Assembly (NCBI GenBank): GCA_951406725.2
Contig: OX597816.1
Span: 92,442,001 to 92,506,000, forward strand
Direction: 5' to 3'
Source: Octopus vulgaris
Lineage: Eukaryota
Length of the DNA stretch: 64,000 nucleotides
Made by a program: the position numbers and the translations under genes. Positions 1,461 to 53,290 of this stretch are shown piece after piece. Below the pieces are notes generated by a model. It had not been told where the DNA came from. It did no database searches and worked only from the letters and a program-made list of their open reading frames with translations. How positions within the stretch are numbered: position 1 is the first letter of the stretch; each line of letters starts with the position of its first letter.

Positions 1461-1513
1461 GTTAAGAGCGCAGGGTACTAACCCCAAAATTCCGAGTTCC
1501 AGGCAATGACCTG
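1461..1513 (+). mobile_element. Left half of a solo Penelope terminal-repeat module (tRNA-like head, 5'-truncated)
   Basis: GTTAAGAGCGCAGGGTACTAACCCCAAAATTCCGAGTTCCAGGCAATGACCTGA aligns to 36222-36280. Confidence 0.8.
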
Positions 1514-1549
1514 AATAATAATAATGATGATGATGATAATAATAATAAT

Positions 1550-1627
<78 letters not shown>
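1514..1627. repeat. (TAA)n microsatellite, 5' flank of R4/Dong insertion
   Basis: Directly visible AAT repeats with a few GAT variants. Confidence 0.97.
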
Positions 1628-1630
<3 letters not shown>

Positions 1631-4324
1631 AAAGATTTGCCTGAAATAAAAGAAAAGCTGAAGCAAGATATCCTTGCCAAAGAACAAAGGATCCGCCGGT
1701 ACAAGAAACGCCAACGCTTCTTTGAAGAAAACAAAAAGTTCAACTCCAACCCCAAAAAGTTCTACCAAGAACTGGGCAAAAATAAAATAGAAGTCACTGC
1801 AGCACCAACGGCAGAAGAATTGGAAGAATTCTGGAGAGAAATATGGTCGGCGAACGAACCACCAAAAAAAAAGGAGTATCAAAATAACAAACTCGGCATC
1901 TGAACAAATTTGGACCCCCATAACAACTGAAGAGGTCACCCAGGCACTGCAAAGACTAAGCAACTGGAAGGCACCTGGGCATGACAAGATCCCCAACTTC
2001 TGGTTGAAATATCTAACAAGTATGCACAAAAAGCTGGCTGAAAACTTTAACAACGTACTAGCAGAGCCAGAGACAATGCCTGAATGGCTCACGAAGGGGA
2101 AAACCATCTTAATTCCCAAATCAAATGAAACAGAAAACCAGAAAACTACAGACCAATAACCTGCCTCCCTACTATGTTCAAGGCATTTACTGCAGTGATA
2201 TCACAAAGGCTGAACAAGCACCTGGACGAAAACAAACTGTTCCCAGAAGAGCAGAAAGGATGCCGCAAAGGCTCATATGGCTGTAAAGATCAACTAATGA
2301 TTAATAAAGCCATAACTGAAGACAGCCACAGAAAGAAGAAAGGCCTCAGTATGGCCTGGATTGACTACAAAAAGGTGTTTGATAGCATCCCCCACACATG
2401 GATCCTCGAAACACTAGCCATTAACAAAGTAGCACCAACAATCATAAAATTCATAGAGCACTCTATGAATAAATGGCAAACAGTCCTACAACTCCAAACA
2501 AAAGAGGGACTCATGAAAACCAAAGACATCCCCATTAGAAGAGGAATATTCCAGGGAGACACGCTCTCTCCACTCCTTTTCTGCTTGGCACTGTCACCTC
2601 TATCTGATATGCTAAATAGAACTGGATGCGGATATAAATGTTACGGCAAAACGATCAGCCACCTTTTATATATGGATGACCTAAAACTATACGCTACAAA
2701 TGACAAACAGCTGGAAACACTATTAAAGACAGTTCATGGATTTACCAAAGAAATAGATATGAAATTTGGATTAGAAAAATGCGCCAAAGTAACCATGAAA
2801 AGAGGAAAACTAGTTAAGAGTAACAACATCACACTAGATAAAACCAATTTAATAAAAGAATTAGACCAAAGCCAAACTTACAAATACTTAGGAATCCATG
2901 AACTAGATAAGACACAACACACACAAATGAAAGAGAAAATAAAAAAGAATATTATAGACGAGTTAGATCAATACTAAACACAGAGCTCAATGCTAAAACA
3001 AGATAATAGGTATCAACACTTTAGCTGTCCCAGTTATAAGTTACAGCTACAATATCCTTAACTGGACACGAAATGAACTGACCAAAATAGATAGGAAAAC
3101 AAGAAAAATAATGACAGGATCTAGGATGCATCACCCAAAATCTGACATAGAAAGACTATATATACAACGTATAGAAGGTGGTAGAGGCCTTATACAGCTG
3201 GAAAACTACTATAAAATAACCACCATAGGACTGCAAAAATATCTACTTCAGAAGGAAGGAAAACTGATCCAGATAGCGGCAAAACACGAGCAAAACAAAA
3301 AACTGTTCTCAGTATTTAAGGAAGCTGACAAATACAAACAAGAAATCATACCACCTAATAAACATGAAGAAGAAGAAGAAGATGAAGAAACAACAAAAGC
3401 TATAAAACAAATGAAATCCAAACTAAAAATAGAACAGCAACGAACCATGATAAAACGATGGCAAGAAAAGCCCCTTCATGGTAAATACTGGACTAAACTA
3501 AACGCAAAAGAAATAGACAAAGAAAAATCCCAGCAATGGTTGAGAAGCTCAGGACTCAAAGCAGAAACAGAGGGATTTTCAATTGCAGCACAAGACCAAA
3601 GCCTCCCCACCAGAAACTACCAAAAACATGTAATGAAAAGAAATATTACGAGTAACTGCAGAATATGTGGAGATGGACAAGAAACAATAAATCATATTAT
3701 CTCTAGCTGACCAGTCCTGGCTAAGAAGGAATACATTCACAGACATGACAGAGTTGGAACCTACATACATTGGAAGTTATGCCAACATTATGGAATAACA
3801 ACAGAAAAAAGATGGTATAGGCACACACCAGAAAAGGTCACAGAAAACGAGAAAGCAACCATACTCTGGGATATGCTGATACACACAGATAGAGAAATTA
3901 AGGCCAACAGACCAGATATAGTTGTCAGAGACCATGAAGAAAAAAATGCTTTCTAATTGATGTATCAATACCGGCTGATGACAACGTGTCTCTAAAAGAA
4001 ATGGAGAAACTCTCAAAATACAAAGACCTGGAAATAGAGGTAACTAGAATGTGGAATCTGAAAACAGAAACAATTCCTATCATAGTAGGTGCATTAGGCA
4101 TGATAAAAAAATATTCAGACAAATACATAACAAAAACACCAGGACTTATAAACACATATAACATACAGAAAATTGCACTACTGGGCACTGCACACATCCT
4201 ACGCAGAACACTTTCCATACAATAATCATCAGAGCATCACAACAAATCACACCACATACCCAAGGCACACAGAGCTGCGCTCGGTAGTGAAGTGAAAGCA
4301 CGCTATAAAAATAAAACTACTGAA
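1628..4324 (+). mobile_element. R4/Dong-clade non-LTR retrotransposon (RLE type), 5'-truncated and frameshifted
   Basis: ORF pieces 1637-1903, 2174-2977, 3111-3710, 3986-4225: RT motifs (EQKGCR, AWIDYKKVFDSIPH, GIFQGDTLSPLLF, HLLYMDDLK, YKYLG), HPKSDIERLY..R.EGGRGL, CCHC knuckle CRICGDGQETINHIISS(C), RHD, RLE motifs RPDIVV...IDVSIP...EKLSKYKDL, C-terminus ALLGTAHILRR; short 3' UTR running into (TAA)n. Confidence 0.93.
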
Positions 4325-4345
4325 CAATAATAATAATAATAATAA

Positions 4346-4545
4346 CAGCAACAACAACAACATCGAAAAATACCTTAGGAATGAGAACCCAGGATTCCAA
4401 CTTCCCCAAGACACCTGATGAAGGCTGGAGGGTATATCAGCCGAAACGTTGTGTCAACAACAAACAAGATGAGGATAAATATCCGTCAAACGTGAATAAT
4501 ATACATAATACCTCATCTCTTAGATATAGAACTGTATGCTATATT
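4346..4545 (+). mobile_element. Right half of the solo Penelope terminal-repeat module (contains hammerhead ribozyme)
   Basis: CAACATCGAA...ATGAGAACCCAG...CCTGATGAAGGCTGGAGGGTATATCAGCCGAAACGTTGTGT...GATGAGGA.AAATATC.GTCAAA aligns to 36360-36492, downstream of a GIY-YIG ORF. Confidence 0.8.
4410..4455 (+). ncRNA. Minimal type I hammerhead ribozyme (Penelope-type, probably dimer-dependent)
   Basis: Stem I GACAC(4410-14)/GTGTC(4451-55); core CTGATGA(4415-21) plus extra A; stem II GGCTG(4423-27)/CAGCC(4438-42); GAAAC(4443-47); loopless palindromic stem III AACGTT; putative cleavage triplet GUU(4448-50). Confidence 0.8.
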
Positions 4546-27938: not shown

Positions 27939-30900
27939 TTTTTTTTCCCTTCTTTCTTCAAATTTTCCTCCGTTTCTCGCCGAGTGTTTTCCATATACCT
28001 AGGGCAGAGAAGGGCATTGTATGCATTCCCAGATTACACGCGCAAATTCACAGATAAAATATGTAGTTAAAAATTAATAAATAAATAAATTCATGGATGG
28101 ATGTTATTTTCACAGCGATAGTGCTCTTCTCAGTACATGAGCCGTTCCAGTTAATACGATTTTTTGCACTTCCTGTAGGGATGGTGAGCTTTGAATCAGT
28201 TTCAAATAGGTTTCAGTACCTTTTTTTTTATCATTCCTAGAGATCCTACAATCATTGGTACTGTAGTCGCCTTGAGATGCCACATTTTTTCAATTTCTAT
28301 TAGCAGGTCTTTATATTTACTAATCTTGTAAATTCTTTCGCCGCTATATTGTGATCACAGGAATACTCGTGTCAATTAATAAACACATCCTTTTTGTCTG
28401 ATCTTTTATAATAATATCCGGTTTATTAGCTTTTATAGTCTTGTCGGTCTGCACAGGGAAGTCCCATAGGATCGACACATTTTCTCCCTCAGTCACAGCT
28501 TCAGGATGATGTTTATACCATTTGTAAGCGGTTTTGATTTCATAATGCCGACATATTGTCCAATGTAAATACTGGCCGACTCTGTCATGTCTTGCTTTAT
28601 ATTCTGCAAGTGCTAAGACTCTACACCCTGAGATTAGGTGGTCTATTGTTTCAATCTCATCATTACAGAATCGGCATTTTGGGTCAACTCCATTTTTCAT
28701 CACATTGGCTTGGTAGTTCCGGGTTAATAAGCTTTTGTCTTGAGCAGCTAATATGAAACCTTCACTCTCTGCTTTTAGCCCTGAGCTTCGTAACCATTGG
28801 TGCGTGTGTTTCTGGTCGACATCAGCTTGTTTGCTACGGGCCACATACTTGCCAAGGAGAGGTTTCTGTTCCCATCTGCTAGCTAAATTTTCATGTGCTT
28901 TTGTCTTTGCAATTAATTTTCTTTTCTTTGCAGCTGCAGTTGGTGTATTACCTTCAGCCTGATCAATCTGGTGGGTATCTAAGAGATCAGCAGCGAAATT
29001 TTTGCTCTCTTTGAGAATAGAGTGAAGTTTTTTCAGTCTTCCATGTTTTTCAACAAGTTTTAGATTCCAATCGTTGGTTGCTTCAAGGTATTTGGCCAGT
29101 CCGATTGTGGTGGTTTTGTATGTAAGTTCAAGCTGGATCAAACCTCGACCTCCCTGAGCTCTGGGAAGGTAAAGGCGATCCATGTCTGCCTTTGGATGGT
29201 GCATCTTATTACAAGTCAGTAGCTTGCGGATTTTTCCGTCAATTTTCATTATTTCACTGGTATTCCAGTTAAGCTATATAGAACAACTGGTACTGCTAAG
29301 GAATTTATGGCTAACACCTTATTATATGCATTCAGCTCAGACTTCAGGACTGCTCGAACTCTTCTATAACATTCTTTCCTAACCTTCTCTTTCATGCTTG
29401 CATGCTGGATACCAGAGCCTTCATTTATTCCTAGGTATTTATAGGTTTGTTCCTGCTCAAGTTCCTTTATGACTATTTCGACATCTAATTCGATTGAACT
29501 AGACTTTACCAATTTCCCTTTCTTAAAAGTGGCTTTGGCACACTTTTCAAAGCCAAACTCCATCCCGATATCATCACTGAATCCTTTCACAGTATGTAAT
29601 AATCCTTCAAGCTCTTCATCATCTTTGCCCTATAGCTTTAAATCATCCATATAAAATAGATGGCTTATTTTTCTGTTGTCAATTTTGTAGCCTTATCCTG
29701 TTCTATTCAGTTTACTTGAGAGTGGTATTAGTGCTATGCAGAAAATTAGTGGTGAAAGTGAGTCACCTTGGAAAATTCCACAGTTTATGCTAATGTTGTT
29801 TGAGTGCAATACTCCATTAGAATGATATAATTGGAGCTTCGTGTTCCACAGTGACATACTATACTTTAAAAAATCTGAAATCACAGGAGAAATTTTGAAA
29901 ATGTCCAGCGATTTCAGAATCCACGAATGTGGTATGCTATCAAAGGCTTTTTTATAATCAATCCATGAAGAGGTGAGGTTTCTGCGCTTGTTATGGCAGT
30001 TCTCAAGGATCATGCGATTAATTAGGAGCTGATCTTTGCATCCGTATGAGCCTCGTCTGCATCCTTTTTGTTCAGTGGGGAAGAGGTTATTCTCTTCCAT
30101 AAACGTATATGTTTTCTCTACTAGAATAGATGTCAAAATCTTATAGGTAGTAGATATACATGTTATAGGCCGGTAGCTTTTGGGGTCTTTCGTTTTGTTA
30201 TTTTGGGGGAGGAGGTAAGTAATACCATTTGCCATCCAATGTGGTGTTTTTTCCGGGTCTTTCATAATACTATTAAATAGTATTACTAACATTTTGTGTG
30301 CGGACGAGAGTGATGAGAGCCAGAAATTTGGTACTCTATCAATACCGGGGGATTTCCACTTATGAACTTTCGTTAGTGCCCTCCTTAGGTCGGCGATTGA
30401 GATGTCTTCCCATACCTGTTCTTGTAGATTTTTGTAGTCATCTTTGGTGCGTTTGATCCACTCTGCATTTTCATTGTATGGTTTCTCATCACTCCAGATC
30501 TCCTTCCAAAAGTTTTCAACTTCTTCCATTAGGGGTGGATTTTCAATGGTTATTTTTTCTTTCCCTATTTCCCTGTAAAATGATATGGCATTGGATTTGA
30601 ACATCTTATTTTGTTTGTAGAATTTGATTCTTTTCTCAAATCTGCGTATTCTCTGAGCTTTTGCCTGAACTTTTTGTTTAAGTGTTTCTTTCGCTGACAT
30701 TGGTTCTTCTCTTGTTGAGTGTCCATATTTTCTCACAATTTTCCTGCCTTTTATTGATCTTACATCATTTTCAGAGATTAGCTCAGTTAATATTGATATC
30801 TCCCTTCGCAATAATTCAATTTCAGTTTCAATTCTACTCCTCCAGTTTGATTTTCTTTTCGAATTTGGTATTGTTGGCTTTTTGGGTATTAAACAGCGTC

Positions 30901-31790
30901 TTTCGATTACCTTGGCGACAGAGTAAATAATTTCATTTAAATTATTAAGATCGGGTTTTAGTTGTTGTATGATTTCCTGTGTAACGCAGTTGCCAATTTT
31001 TATTTGTGTTTTATGTTGGTGTGCATTTGAGAGTTTATGGAGTGGTTCCCTATCATTCATAGTTGTATGGCCTACAACTGCAAGCTCATTCAGAACTTCT
31101 TGCTTCATTTCAATGATAGATTTTCTGTGTTGTTCAACAAACATGGGGTCTTCAAATTCTGTTTCGACATCATTTTCCGGGCTGTTTTTTCTAGGGTCAT
31201 TATATTTTCCTTCTTCTTCAGGATCTTGAGTCGTTTCGGCAGATGGTCGCCTTTCAGTCAATGCTTGTGGCCCAACATTTCTCTCCTCAGCTTCGTTATT
31301 TCTTTCCTGACTTACATTTAGGTCATTCTCTACCATTTTTTTAATAGAGGTTAATTCTGCATCTGTGAGTTTGGTATTTCTGAAGATATCTCTTCTAATA
31401 TTTGCTAATCTGTTTTCATCGAGGTTTGGTCTGCTAGCTGGATTCCGGCTCCTATAAATTGTGTAGGAGTCTGCGGTGTGTTTTTCTTGGGTTGGCCTAC
31501 TTAATGCAAAGTAATAAGCATGTATTACTTCTTTATATTCTTCCCGGTTCCATTTAGTTCCTTTACTCTTTTGATTTTCTGGTCATTTTGGTGGTGAACT
31601 TTGGGTGCTTAATTTGGGACAAATCCCATTTAAGTGACCTTCCAGGTTCGTATTCGGGGAAGATATTCTGTCATTTGAAAATTTTTTGCCATCAGGCTGG
31701 CAGCCTCCTGACGGGCGCGCTTCCTTTATAACCATTGGACAAGCGATTCGGTGTACTGTTAGAAATTTTCTTTTCAAGTAAAGTTAAATT
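27939..31790 (-). mobile_element. Near full-length R4/Dong element F (related but distinct family), single ORF with few disablements
   Basis: In-frame chain 31777-31583, 31336-29693, 29590-29249 broken by point stops, then a frameshift to 29249-28344; N-terminal KWNREEYKEVIHAYY...LDENRLANIRRDIF...LTDAEL domain, RT (WIDYKKAFDSIPH, GIFQGDSLSPL, YMDDLK), CCHC CRFCNDEIETIDHLISGC, RHD, KPDIII/IDTSIP, C-terminus VLTGTAHVLRR. Confidence 0.93.
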
Positions 31791-35188: not shown

Positions 35189-36204
35189 CTTTTGCTTGTT
35201 TCAGTCCTGGAGCACCACATTGAAGAATTTTTGGTCGAATGAACTGACACCAGTACTTATTCTATTTTTAAGGCTTGGTACTTATTATTGCTCGATGTTT
35301 TAGGCACTAATCAATCCCTGTCTTTACACTGTATGGATGGTGGAAACTGAAGTTGAGGTATCGTCTAGTGAAGGTCGGCTTGCGGTATACGGATGTCCTG
35401 AATCCATACTTGGTGCGTGTTATTAATACTTCAGCTAGCATTCCTAGACGTATTAATACGCACCAAGTATGGATTCAGGACATCCGTATATCGCATGCGG
35501 ACCTTCATTGGACGGTACCTCAACTTCATTTCCCACCATCCATACAGTGTAAAGAGAGGGATTGCTCAGTGCCTTAAAGATCGAGCAAATAATATAAGTA
35601 GCGATCGTGATACACATTACGAAGAAATGATCAAGTTCAGTAAAAATCTATTAAGCAACACCTACCCCCAAAACATACTATCCACTCCAATTATGAAGAA
35701 AACAGAAGATGAAACCAATAAACTGTCCACAGTCTGTCTAACCTATGTGAAAGGCCTCCGAAAAGATACAAAACATATGCGGCCCATATGACATCAGGAC
35801 CGTATTCAAGAGTAATACAACACTTCGCAAATATCTCCTTCGAGTAAAATCACCAATAGAAGAGAATATGACCAAAAACTGCGTGTACTCCATCCCATGC
35901 AGCTCTGGTAGGTTATACAAAGGAGAAACATTCCGCTTCCTCAAAATAAGAGCAGAGGAACATCGCAAAGCTGTGACACGAGGAGATACTGATAAATCGG
36001 AGACCACATCCCCTTGTGAGGGTGAAGTTAAAATAATAGGCAGAGAACACCGCTGGAAAGTACGGAAACTAAAAGAAGCAGCGCATATGCTAGTACACAA
36101 TAACCTCCTAGCAGACCGAGTGCAGGTATGAATATGGGAACCGGTATTAAGGAAGGATAGGAAAATATTAGATTTATAATAGATTCATAACACCTAAAAT
36201 CCAC

Positions 36205-36277
36205 GGGCATATGGCGTAGTGGTTAAGAGCGCGGGCTACTAACCCCAAGATTCCAAGTTCGATTCCAGGCAGTGACC
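36205..36277 (+). other. tRNA-like (Pol III A/B box) segment within the Penelope terminal repeat; not a functional tRNA
   Basis: A box TGGCGTAGTGG, anticodon-like loop CT-ACT-AA, B box GTTCGATTCC, imperfect acceptor GGGCAT/GTGACC. Confidence 0.65.
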
Positions 36278-36291
36278 TGAATAATAATAAC

Positions 36292-36332
<41 letters not shown>

Positions 36333-36405
36333 TAATAATAATAATAATAATAACAACAACAACAACAGCAACAACATCGAATGAGAACCCAGATTCGAAA
36401 TTTCC

Positions 36406-36446
36406 CTGATGAAGGCTGGAGGGTATATCAGCCGAAACGTTGTGTT
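36406..36446 (+). ncRNA. Hammerhead ribozyme core, stem I 5' strand deleted (probably inactive)
   Basis: CTGATGA-A-GGCTG-loop-CAGCC-GAAAC-GTT identical to 4415-4450, but upstream GACAC is missing. Confidence 0.65.
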
Positions 36447-36485
36447 AGCAACAAAGAAGATGAGGACAAATATCTGTCAAATGTA

Positions 36486-36541
<56 letters not shown>

Positions 36542-36692: not shown

Positions 36693-37939
36693 CAGGAGTT
36701 GGACAAAATAATCGAAATACCTCGCATCATAGCATCATAATTTTGAAATATCTTTCAAACCTTCAAAAGTTTGTTTATATTCATGTTTTTTTATTCATTA
36801 TTCGTGTTGCTTAATATGTTTTGCTAAAATTGCTGTTTCTTTTCAGATATCATCAGAAAAAGGTAATTAAAATTCATTAAAATGATAGTTCTATCAGACT
36901 TTCAAAGAGATCAAATTGTTGATGTTCGTATAGCAGGGGCTAGCGTAACGAAAACAGCTGAAATGTTTGGTGTATCAAGAAGTACTGTCACGAAAGTAAT
37001 GACAGCCTTTGGGAAATTGGGAAAAACTTTCTCCTTGAAAAAAAGAATCCGGAAAAAAACCAAAAATCTTTTAGATATGGACCGTCGGACTCCTACGCGA
37101 ATAGTTAGAATGGATCACAAAATTACAGCTCTCAAATTACTCCAGAGTTTAACGTCCATGTCGAGAACCCAGTTTCCACAAAAACTGTTGGGAGCTGCAC
37201 AAAGCTGGATTTTGCAGGAGGGCTGCAATTAGAAAACCACTACTTTCAAATACAAACGTTGCAAAGCGTTTAGAGTGGAGTAAAAACCTATAGAATCGGT
37301 CCCTAGCGCAGTGGAAAAATGTTATTTTCCTGGATGAATCATCCTTTACCTTATTTACGACGACCAGCTAAGTATACGTGTGGAGACAGAAAAAAGAAGC
37401 ATTTGACCCAGACTGTCTTCTTCCAACTGCTAAGGAGGAGGATCTGTAATGATCTGGGGGCGGGTCAATGGTTTCCCTCCATGGCAGAATTTTATAGACA
37501 AGACTATTTAAGCGTTTTATCTGATCAAATTCATCCCATGGTTGCGGAACAGTTTCGGAGGGAAACGCAATCTTTCAGGATGGTAATGTACCAATTCACA
37601 CAGCTAAATTTGTTACTGAATGGCACGAGGAACATTCTAGTGAAGTTGAACATCTTATCTGGCCACCACAGTCCCCAGATCTCAATATTATTGAACATTT
37701 ATGGTGCATTTTAGAAAATCAAGTAAGGTGTCGATATCCTCCACAAACATCACTACAAGAAGTGCAGACTGTTTTAACTGAAGAATGGACAAAATTTCCA
37801 TTGAAAACAATTCAAACTTTGTACGAGTCTATACCTCGTAGAATTCAAGCTGCAATTACTGCCAAATGTGGTCCTACCTCATACTAAAATAAATTTGTTT
37901 GAAATTTTAAGGTGTTTCTATTATTTTCTCCAACCTCTG
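36693..37939 (+). mobile_element. Tc1-family DNA transposon, complete ends, decayed transposase
   Basis: ~30-bp imperfect TIRs (CAGGAGTTGGACAAAATAATCGAAATACCT / AGGTGTTTCTATTATTTTCTCCAACCTCTG-TA); LSDFQRDQIV..RIAGASVTKTAEMFGVSRSTV HTH; FQDGNVPIH; WPPQSPDLNIIEHLW. Confidence 0.92.
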
Positions 37940-52740: not shown

Positions 52741-53010
52741 TTTATTTGAACGTAAAATTATTAATATAAATAATAATACTTTTATTATTGTTGTTATTCT
52801 CCTACCTTACGGTATTGTTCTTGCGCGATAATACTGCGAGGGTACCAGCAAGGATTACATCAATCCCAATTTTTTTGCTACCTCTCCAATGTTGGCAGAA
52901 CGAAAAGCAAATTGGGGAGGTGAAAAGCTAAATCCCATCTATTGTGTTCTAATAACTTTTCAGCCTACTCTGTGATATTCATGAATTTAATGCATAGTTA
53001 TATGTATGTG

Positions 53011-53290
53011 AAGGCGTGTGGTTTAGTGGTTCGGGTATTCGGCTCACGATCGTAAGGTTGTAAGTTCAATACCCGGCAGCGTACATTGTCTCTTGATCAA
53101 GACACTTTATTAATGAGTGGTACCTGTATTTCAAAGGGTCAGCATTGTCATTTTTCAGTCACGTTGAATCTCTCTAAGAACAGATTTAGAGGTACGCATG
53201 TCTATGGAGTGCTCATCCGCTTGCACGTTAATTTCAGGAGCAAGCTGTTCGGTTGATGAAATCAACTGGAACTCGTTCGCCGTGACCATT
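53011..53290 (+). mobile_element. tRNA-derived SINE (family of 41905)
   Basis: AGGCGTGTGGTTTAGTGGTT A-box, GTTCAATACC B-box, GTCTCTTGATCAAGACACTT. Confidence 0.65.

What the first reader, a model, noticed from the sequence alone, without database searches (positions are those of the whole stretch)
36205..36492. Composite terminal module: tRNA-like Pol III head + (TAA/CAA)n + hammerhead
Seen: directly after the GIY-YIG ORF lie A/B boxes, a triplet array and a hammerhead core; the module also occurs without adjacent PLE coding sequence at 1461-4545. Inference: a PLE captured a tRNA/SINE into its terminal repeat, possibly yielding a Pol III-transcribed, self-cleaving, non-autonomous unit (SINE/retrozyme hybrid) mobilised by Penelope. 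I do not recall this architecture being described, but cannot check.
Basis: partly seen in the sequence, partly recalled or inferred. Interest (0 to 1): 0.7.

Follow-up and report, generated by a model that had tools for sequence, protein, structure and literature searches.

The report
Penelope-mobilised tRNA SINE in octopus
A short repeat in octopus-type DNA joins a decayed tRNA gene to the front end of a Penelope retrotransposon's gene, often starts at the tRNA's first base, and is likely a SINE transcribed by RNA polymerase III and likely copied by Penelope enzymes instead of the usual LINE enzymes.

Summary
The module is real. It is a 73-base head derived from tRNA-Ile(AAT) with intact A/B boxes, then (AAT)n/(CAA)n, then a minimal hammerhead core. 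The hammerhead tail is the first 40-52 codons of a Penelope ORF, and copies end at either of two sites about 30 bases apart, as expected for Penelope's internal reverse-transcription starts. In runs from three organisms, depth steps up 3.6-6.6-fold (rough) at tRNA base +1. Many flanks there are diverse and carry a fold-back of the head's 5' end, a Penelope insertion signature. One ORF-to-head junction recurs in all three organisms, so the module is also the pseudo-LTR of ORF-bearing copies. Best reading (0.6): a Penelope-mobilised, probably Pol III-transcribed SINE-like unit. The self-cleaving retrozyme part is not supported: this copy has lost helix I and copies keep both sides of the cut site. 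The window's second copy is 5'-truncated and split by a LINE, not a clean solo. Pol III transcripts and genome-wide head-to-tail linkage are untested. Schistosome Sm-alpha already joins a tRNA head to a hammerhead. I found no SINE with an identified Penelope partner in ten literature searches; Repbase and Dfam were not checked.

The parts
35283..35438 (-). Inverted (fold-back) arm at the truncated 5' end of the Penelope copy
   Evidence: Mirror of 35440-35594, 86% identical; tblastn to relatives on the - strand
35432..36179 (+). 5'-truncated Penelope/Poseidon-type ORF end: RT thumb region plus GIY-YIG-type endonuclease, frameshifted and with an internal deletion; stop at 36177-36179
   Evidence: 58-59% identity to P0193 and P0003, E 2e-74 and 2e-73. 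Relatives carry RVT_1; GIY-YIG scored only E 0.23 in P0015 and the window pieces had no Pfam hit
36180..36204 (+). Short 3' spacer; in the family it ends in a relic fold-back of the head's first bases, partly deleted in this copy
   Evidence: Loose ends behind 36179 in 102, 96, 92 contigs and 184 RNA reads, agreement 0.78-0.84
36205..36277 (+). tRNA-Ile(AAT)-derived head; 36205 is tRNA base +1; A box 36212-36222, B box 36257-36266
   Evidence: End-to-end alignment to a tRNA-Ile gene, 52 of 73 identical, best of 200 shuffles scores 1 against 44; A box starts at head position 8; pattern control
36280..36376 (+). (AAT)n grading into (CAA)n
   Evidence: TRF, sequence; reads leaving the head continue in AAT repeats
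36381..36492 (+). Start of the Penelope ORF (ATG 36381), ending at the short (proximal) family end; holds the hammerhead
   Evidence: Homologous to the N-terminus of full-length PLE protein P0015; family ends at residues 41-44 or 51-52
36406..36441 (+). Minimal type I hammerhead core with helix II and a palindromic 2-pair helix III; helix I 5' strand deleted in this copy; predicted cut after 36441
1461..1627 (+). Second copy: head missing about its first 16 bases, B-box deletion, then (AAT)n; no fold-back arm; lies next to an old LINE fragment
   Evidence: 84% to head
1628..4326 (+). 5'-truncated restriction-endonuclease-type LINE (Dong/R4-like, name from recall) inserted in the triplet array of the second copy; not part of the module
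   Evidence: RVT_1 E 3.6e-32; a 97.8% identical copy at 27844-26718 also ends in (AAT)n
4327..4536 (+). Second copy tail: triplets, ATG 4381, intact minimal hammerhead (helix I 4410-4414 with 4451-4455, core 4415-4450), ending at the long (distal) family end

Best explanation
The module is a short non-coding retroelement made of a tRNA-Ile-derived head, a triplet spacer and the first 120-155 bases of a Penelope ORF; it is likely transcribed by RNA polymerase III from the tRNA's first base and likely copied into the genome by the Penelope reverse transcriptase/endonuclease. Inferred steps: TFIIIC binds the A/B boxes and the RNA starts at 36205-equivalent. The Penelope protein binds the ORF-start segment and starts reverse transcription internally, at one of two sites about 30 bases apart, so no poly(A) or defined 3' end is needed. 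It copies through the uncut hammerhead, the triplets and the head to base +1, where the cDNA folds back and leaves an inverted arm. The same unit also sits behind the GIY-YIG stop in a family of ORF-bearing copies and so serves as their pseudo-LTR (shown); it probably got there by inserting at the ORF end (inferred). Whether solo copies found their own lineages or come mostly from pseudo-LTRs of longer elements is open.
For: Tail = ORF start: 19 of 45 identical to the N-terminus of 847-aa PLE protein P0015, pairwise E 8e-6. Two 3' ends: of 143 phmmer hits to the tail peptide, 57 end at query residues 39-46 and 76 at 49-53; of 16 closest-family hits 9 end at 41-44, 5 at 51-52, 2 elsewhere; the two window copies end one at each. 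This matches the two RT start sites and 30-40-base tail of anole Poseidon (PMC11167929). Precise 5' end: depth over the head is 4.2, 6.5, 6.6 times (DNA contigs, three organisms) and 3.6 times (RNA reads) the highest PLE-body bin, with the step at 36201-36205; in RNA reads depth is 395 at 36198, 1295 at 36204, 2456 at 36255. 36205 is tRNA +1. Loose ends before 36201-36208 come from 318, 310 and 413 contigs with agreement only 0.38-0.47. In all 3 DNA runs the consensus before 36205 ends in the 8-base reverse complement of the head start plus 2 letters, and the RNA consensus (786 reads) matches the expected fold-back arm at 18 of its last 20 letters. Such adjacent inverted 5' copies are typical of PLE insertions (PMC8557442), and the window's own PLE has one. 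Head and tail are linked in 2 of 2 window copies and in an O. bimaculoides gene model whose N-terminus reads fold-back arm, head start, then tail (P0040, XP_052825882.1). No T4 run lies in the module.
Against: No Pol III RNA was seen: the RNA run shows no start or end peaks and near-equal strands, though a standard cDNA library would not show them. Genome-wide head-to-tail linkage was not measured because the laid stretch stopped before the triplet array; the extra heads could partly lack the tail. Summed contig depth is not a copy number, the window copy's divergence lowers body depth, and some loose ends before 36201 come from ORF-linked copies; only 24 of 1262 loose-end rows were shown. The window's second copy is truncated inside the head and has no fold-back. 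No intact ORF beginning with this family's N-terminus was retrieved (0 of 143 hits with RT motifs; 1 hit), so the partner's identity with the adjacent GIY-YIG family is inferred. In the anole element the minimal template needs 172 bases of ORF, more than inserted copies keep, so solo copies may be dead ends. The missing T4 run is not significant on its own.
Confidence: 0.6

Rival explanations
1. The head plus (AAT)n is an ordinary LINE-dependent simple SINE; most heads have no Penelope tail, and one SINE copy was caught in a Penelope pseudo-LTR and spread as a minor subfamily.
For: Heads outnumber ORF-linked copies and are followed by AAT repeats; a LINE ending in (AAT)n is present twice in the window; head-to-tail linkage was not measured genome-wide.
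Against: Fold-back arms at the head's first base are a PLE, not a LINE, signature; 2 of 2 window heads carry the tail and 2 of 2 tails carry a head, as does P0040.
Confidence: 0.17
2. The tRNA head is an inert passenger in the pseudo-LTR; solo copies are 5'-truncated products of ordinary Pol II Penelope transcripts, with a truncation hotspot or a Pol II start that happens to fall at the head.
For: PLE insertions are mostly 5'-truncated and solo hammerhead ends are very common; Drosophila Penelope has an internal TATA-less promoter in the pseudo-LTR; the window's second copy is cut inside the head; a hairpin lies at the junction.
Against: The step falls on tRNA +1, the expected Pol III start; both boxes are kept; the fold-back arm on other copies is longer and more exact than the relic at the ORF junction, so it is not simply inherited from it.
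Confidence: 0.15
3. It is a retrozyme: tandem modules self-cleave, circularise and spread through RNA circles.
For: Type I hammerhead; animal retrozymes are proposed pLTR derivatives; Sm-alpha cleaves in multimers.
Against: Both window copies are monomers; none of the 24 loose-end rows shown places tail sequence before the head; cleavage would part the promoter from the RT start; the hammerhead is the minimal low-activity kind and is dispensable for insertion in vitro in the anole element; helix I is lost in the focal copy.
Confidence: 0.05
4. A one-off nest of unrelated repeats at this locus.
For: The window is dense in nested repeats.
Against: The same order of parts occurs twice in the window, and the same ORF-to-head junction occurs in about 90-100 contigs in each of three organisms.
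Confidence: 0.03

Closest known systems
Schistosome Sm-alpha / Sj-alpha SINE-like elements
   Same: tRNA-derived (tRNA-Gln for Sm-alpha), apparently Pol III-transcribed short elements with a type I hammerhead, in very high copy number (passages of PMC2770079 and PMC6765202).
   Different: Those carry an active hammerhead and propagate as tandems; the passages read name no mobilising partner. Here the hammerhead is the minimal PLE kind inside a recognisable PLE ORF start, the copies seen are monomers with PLE ends, and the same unit is the pseudo-LTR of ORF-bearing copies.
Penelope/Poseidon pseudo-LTR (anole PAc, Drosophila Penelope)
   Same: ORF end, then pLTR, then ORF start overlapping a minimal hammerhead; two 3' ends about 30 bases apart; 5' truncation with inverted arm.
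   Different: A tRNA-derived A/B-box head and a long triplet array occupy the place where Drosophila Penelope has its start site and TATA-less internal promoter.
Animal non-LTR retrozymes
   Same: Short, non-coding, hammerhead-bearing, proposed non-autonomous PLE derivatives.
   Different: Defined as tandem repeats giving circular RNAs; no tRNA head in the text read. No tandem was seen here.
TRIMp3 (Cassandra, Helenus, Ajax)
   Same: A small-RNA-derived Pol III promoter inside the terminal repeat of a non-autonomous retroelement, proposed to arise by SINE insertion (PMC10886601).
   Different: Those have true LTRs, PBS and PPT and depend on LTR retrotransposons; this is the Penelope counterpart.
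Canonical tRNA SINEs (SINE2), including octopus OK/OR1/OR2
   Same: tRNA head with A/B boxes, copies starting at +1, partner-derived 3' part.
   Different: The partner segment is from the 5' start of a PLE ORF, not a LINE 3' end; the triplet array is internal. I could not compare with the octopus families' sequences (Ohshima and Okada 1994 seen only as a citation; their Lys/Arg origin is recalled).

Membership tests
EN+ Penelope-like element (Penelope/Poseidon) | RT followed by C-terminal GIY-YIG endonuclease | tested here: met
EN+ Penelope-like element (Penelope/Poseidon) | No extra zinc-finger linker between RT and EN (unlike Neptune/Nematis) | tested here: met
   By eye on P0193 and P0015 against the definition; no tree built
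EN+ Penelope-like element (Penelope/Poseidon) | Pseudo-LTR with minimal hammerhead at the ORF start and optional 30-40-base tail | tested here: met
EN+ Penelope-like element (Penelope/Poseidon) | 5' truncation with adjacent inverted copy | tested here: met
   35283-35438; fold-back before the head
SINE (tRNA-derived) | tRNA-derived 5' head with A and B boxes | tested here: met
   Rfam and ARAGORN negative
SINE (tRNA-derived) | Dispersed copies with a defined 5' end at the tRNA start | tested here: met
   Depth step and diverse flanks at 36201-36205 in three organisms; window copy 2 is an exception
SINE (tRNA-derived) | Transcription by RNA polymerase III | not testable with these tools
   One unstranded-looking cDNA run, no start peaks
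SINE (tRNA-derived) | 3' end shared with a LINE, ending in poly(A) or simple repeat | tested here: not met
   The 3' part is a PLE ORF start and ends at two fixed internal sites
SINE (tRNA-derived) | Target-site duplications | tested here: inconclusive
   None evident for either window copy; one abuts (AT)n
Non-LTR retrozyme | Head-to-tail tandem units each with a hammerhead | tested here: not met
   Both window copies monomeric; not excluded elsewhere in the genome
Non-LTR retrozyme | Self-cleavage and circular RNA | not testable with these tools
   No assay; focal copy lacks helix I
Minimal type I hammerhead of metazoan PLEs | Core boxes, extra base before helix II, short helix I, palindromic helix III | tested here: met
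   Copy at 4410-4455: 5-pair helix I, 5-6-pair helix II, palindrome; no Rfam hammerhead match

The most novel reading that the evidence does not exclude
This is a self-propagating SINE family whose autonomous partner is a Penelope element. It uses the ORF-start initiation site instead of a LINE 3' tail and has taken over the pseudo-LTR of its own helper, so a Pol III promoter now sits at the helper's start site. It would define a third SINE-partner type and may explain schistosome Sm-alpha as a convergent case.
Probability: 0.4. Interest if true: 0.75.

Novelty: new variant of a known kind. Interest (0 to 1): 0.6.

Why it matters
SINEs are normally paired with LINEs, and Pol III-driven parasites of LTR elements are known; a documented Penelope-dependent SINE would fill the missing cell. 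It follows directly from Penelope's internal priming near the ORF start: any short RNA carrying that segment is a template. It gives a testable explanation for hammerhead-bearing tRNA SINEs such as Sm-alpha. It also gives a natural map of both the RNA 5' end and the two RT start sites, and may account for part of the large unclassified SINE fraction in octopus (893 of 900 recently active SINE families unclassified in O. vulgaris).

Tried and rejected
No genome is held for this window, so copies could not be counted or extracted. Exact-pattern scans found nothing: hammerhead pattern in metagenome and viral contigs, head pattern in prokaryote genomes and metagenomes. A protein search with the reverse-strand reading of the head, meant to test head-to-tail linkage, gave 0 of 3 candidates. 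Rfam at E up to 1 on the window and up to 10 on the head and the intact tail gave no tRNA or hammerhead match. ARAGORN missed the head even at relaxed thresholds that already gave 67 chance calls in the window. Free folding of the head is no better than shuffles (z +1.49) and of the tail is unremarkable (z -0.40). blastn of the head against phages gave 2 weak tRNA-Gln hits at E 2, not used. The tRNA-Ile call is not an unbiased isotype search: the pattern was relaxed with tRNA-Ile in mind. All 13 of 13 hits were Ile(AAT); five Ile genes scored 24-44 against 3-23 for three Gly and -17 for one Thr gene. The idea that the whole PLE is Pol III-transcribed: no T4 run in 765 bases of ORF, but about one is expected by chance, so no support. 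A translation-level covariation count for helix II was confounded by CpG decay and not used. One paper (PMC5785218) was not held.

Full report
Setting. The window is repeat-rich animal DNA. The only named protein relatives are from Octopus sinensis and O. bimaculoides, so it is octopus or close kin. No whole genome is held, so genome-wide evidence comes from one lay of public sequencing runs and from protein searches.

Observation. Upstream lies a 5'-truncated Penelope copy: RT thumb and GIY-YIG-type endonuclease, 58-59% identical to full-length relatives, stop at 36177-36179, with an inverted arm at its 5' end (35283-35438 against 35440-35594). The relatives lack the Neptune/Nematis linker finger by eye, which points to the Penelope/Poseidon clade; no tree was built.

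The head. Rfam and ARAGORN do not recognise it. It aligns end to end with real tRNA-Ile(AAT) genes fetched from viral contigs (13 of 13 pattern hits were Ile-AAT). The best global alignment has 52 of 73 identities and scores 44, against a best shuffle of 1; Gly and Thr genes from the same loci score lower. The pattern was relaxed with Ile in mind, so the isotype is likely, not proven. The A box starts at head position 8, so 36205 is tRNA base +1, the expected Pol III start (established knowledge of type 2 promoters).

The tail. It is the start of the Penelope ORF. The second copy reads open from ATG 4381 and matches the N-terminus of a full-length PLE protein (19 of 45, E 8e-6 pairwise). The hammerhead lies inside these codons, as in anole Poseidon (PMC11167929, parts 1-2 of 4 read). 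That paper shows reverse transcription starting at two internal sites near the ORF start, whose spacing makes the optional 30-40-base tail. A phmmer search with the tail peptide gave 143 hits, mostly short predicted ORFs over genomic copies of this and related families; 57 end at residues 39-46, 76 at 49-53 and 10 elsewhere. A regex picked 17 as closest family, of which I dropped one (P0119) by eye; of the other 16, 9 end at 41-44, 5 at 51-52 and 2 earlier. The focal copy ends at the first site and the second copy at the second. None of the 143 holds RT motifs, so an intact helper with this exact N-terminus was not found.

The hammerhead. In the second copy it has the minimal metazoan PLE form: 5-pair helix I, an extra base before helix II and a palindromic stub for helix III (definition in PMC4209133, parts 1-2 of 4). 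In the focal copy an 8-base deletion removes the 5' strand of helix I. Such motifs cleave poorly and as dimers; in the anole element cleavage needs protein and is not required for insertion. The predicted cut (+70 of the ORF) lies between the promoter and the RT start, and both window copies keep both sides, so the template was uncut RNA (inference).

Solo versus ORF-linked. I laid 35685-36284 on three DNA runs (contigs; organisms A, B, C) and one raw RNA run (organism B; about 6% read), 4 of the 24 runs listed. Depth over the head is 4.2, 6.5, 6.6 and 3.6 times the highest body bin, with the step at 36201-36205. These are rough figures: summed contig depth is not copy number and divergence of the window copy lowers the body. 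Loose ends before 36201-36208 are numerous (318, 310, 413 contigs; 786 reads) and agree poorly (0.38-0.47 in DNA, 0.6 in RNA), which means many different flanks; some of them belong to ORF-linked copies. Their conserved part is a mirror of the head's own start: 8 of 8 letters plus a 2-letter spacer in all three DNA runs, and 18 of the last 20 letters in the RNA consensus. It is not only a library artefact, since DNA contigs show it and an O. bimaculoides gene model begins with a peptide that reads mirror arm, head start, then tail (P0040). Adjacent inverted 5' copies are characteristic of PLE insertions (PMC8557442, passages). One ORF-to-head junction recurs behind 36179 in 102, 96 and 92 contigs and 184 reads with agreement 0.78-0.84, so the ORF-linked form is a family feature. 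That junction ends in a short imperfect relic of the same mirror arm, which suggests the short unit inserted behind an ORF and became its pseudo-LTR (inference; the anole enzyme prefers an ATT motif just past its own ORF end). The RNA run shows no start or end peaks and near-equal strands, so it says nothing on Pol III. Only 24 of 1262 loose-end rows were displayed.

What is not shown. The laid stretch ended before the triplets, so the share of heads that carry the tail is unmeasured; the direct evidence is 2 of 2 window copies and one gene model. The window's second copy is not a clean solo: it lacks about 16 bases of the head, has a damaged B box and no mirror arm, and is split by a 2.7-kb LINE in its triplet array. 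In the anole system the minimal template includes 172 bases of ORF, more than these copies keep, so many solos may be dead ends fed from longer masters.

Comparison. It works like a SINE but fails the LINE-tail criterion, so it is not filed as a canonical SINE; it fails the tandem criterion of retrozymes. A tRNA head with a hammerhead is known from Sm-alpha/Sj-alpha (passages of PMC2770079, PMC6765202, PMC8490949; the original papers were not read). Non-autonomous PLE derivatives are known (bioRxiv 10.64898/2026.07.22.740005, parts 1-3 of 5, supplements closed; passages of PMC7229834, PMC8557442, PMC6685494). Pol III promoters in terminal repeats are known for LTR elements (PMC10886601, passages). 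Drosophila Penelope has a TATA-less internal promoter at the matching place (PMC2377424, passages). Passages of PMC6962438 and PMC4758252 added nothing. Ten full-text searches returned no description of a tRNA-headed PLE pseudo-LTR or a SINE with a named Penelope partner; the library lacks most subscription papers, and Repbase, Dfam and SINEBase were not searched. Earlier scan notes describe tRNA-bearing repeats with Penelope-type ends but no hammerhead in other animals, and one one-off SINE-PLE join; these are unchecked leads, not support.

Verdict. A real, abundant composite element shared by at least three related organisms; most likely a Penelope-mobilised, Pol III-type SINE-like unit that is also the pseudo-LTR of ORF-bearing copies (0.6). 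New variant of known kinds; interest 0.6.

Noticed in passing
P0040 (XP_052825882.1, O. bimaculoides dystrobrevin beta isoform X1): The model's first 32 residues come from a copy of this module (mirror arm, head start, hammerhead tail) joined to dystrobrevin sequence: either exonisation as an alternative first exon or a gene-model artefact. The triplet part is skipped, by splicing or deletion.
   Followed up: partly
window 4400-4410 and 36221-36227: A pyrimidine tract plus AG sits exactly at the 5' end of hammerhead helix I, and a GT donor-like site lies in the head's A box. In Drosophila Penelope an intron ends at helix I. A possible intron spanning the triplet array was not tested.
   Followed up: no
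window 1628-4326 (+) and 27844-26718 (-): Two 97.8% identical copies of a restriction-endonuclease-type LINE, both ending in (AAT)n; a young family that targets triplet arrays (Dong/R4-like, from recall) and so lands inside this module.
   Followed up: partly
window 28223-31582 (-): An older, related LINE with a 629-codon open stretch, about 63-67% identical in DNA to the young family.
   Followed up: no
window 53007-53085 (+): A different tRNA-type SINE head (weak ARAGORN tRNA-Arg call at relaxed threshold) that aligns without gaps to this head, 42 of 67 identical.
   Followed up: partly
P0043-P0182: At least two other Penelope families with the same ORF-start hammerhead and the same two 3' ends; several hits hold short tandem tail repeats or inverted tail arms. 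Whether they have tRNA heads is unknown.
   Followed up: no
window 36867-37890 (+): Decayed Tc1/mariner-type transposase just downstream of the module (from the translations; family name from recall).
   Followed up: no
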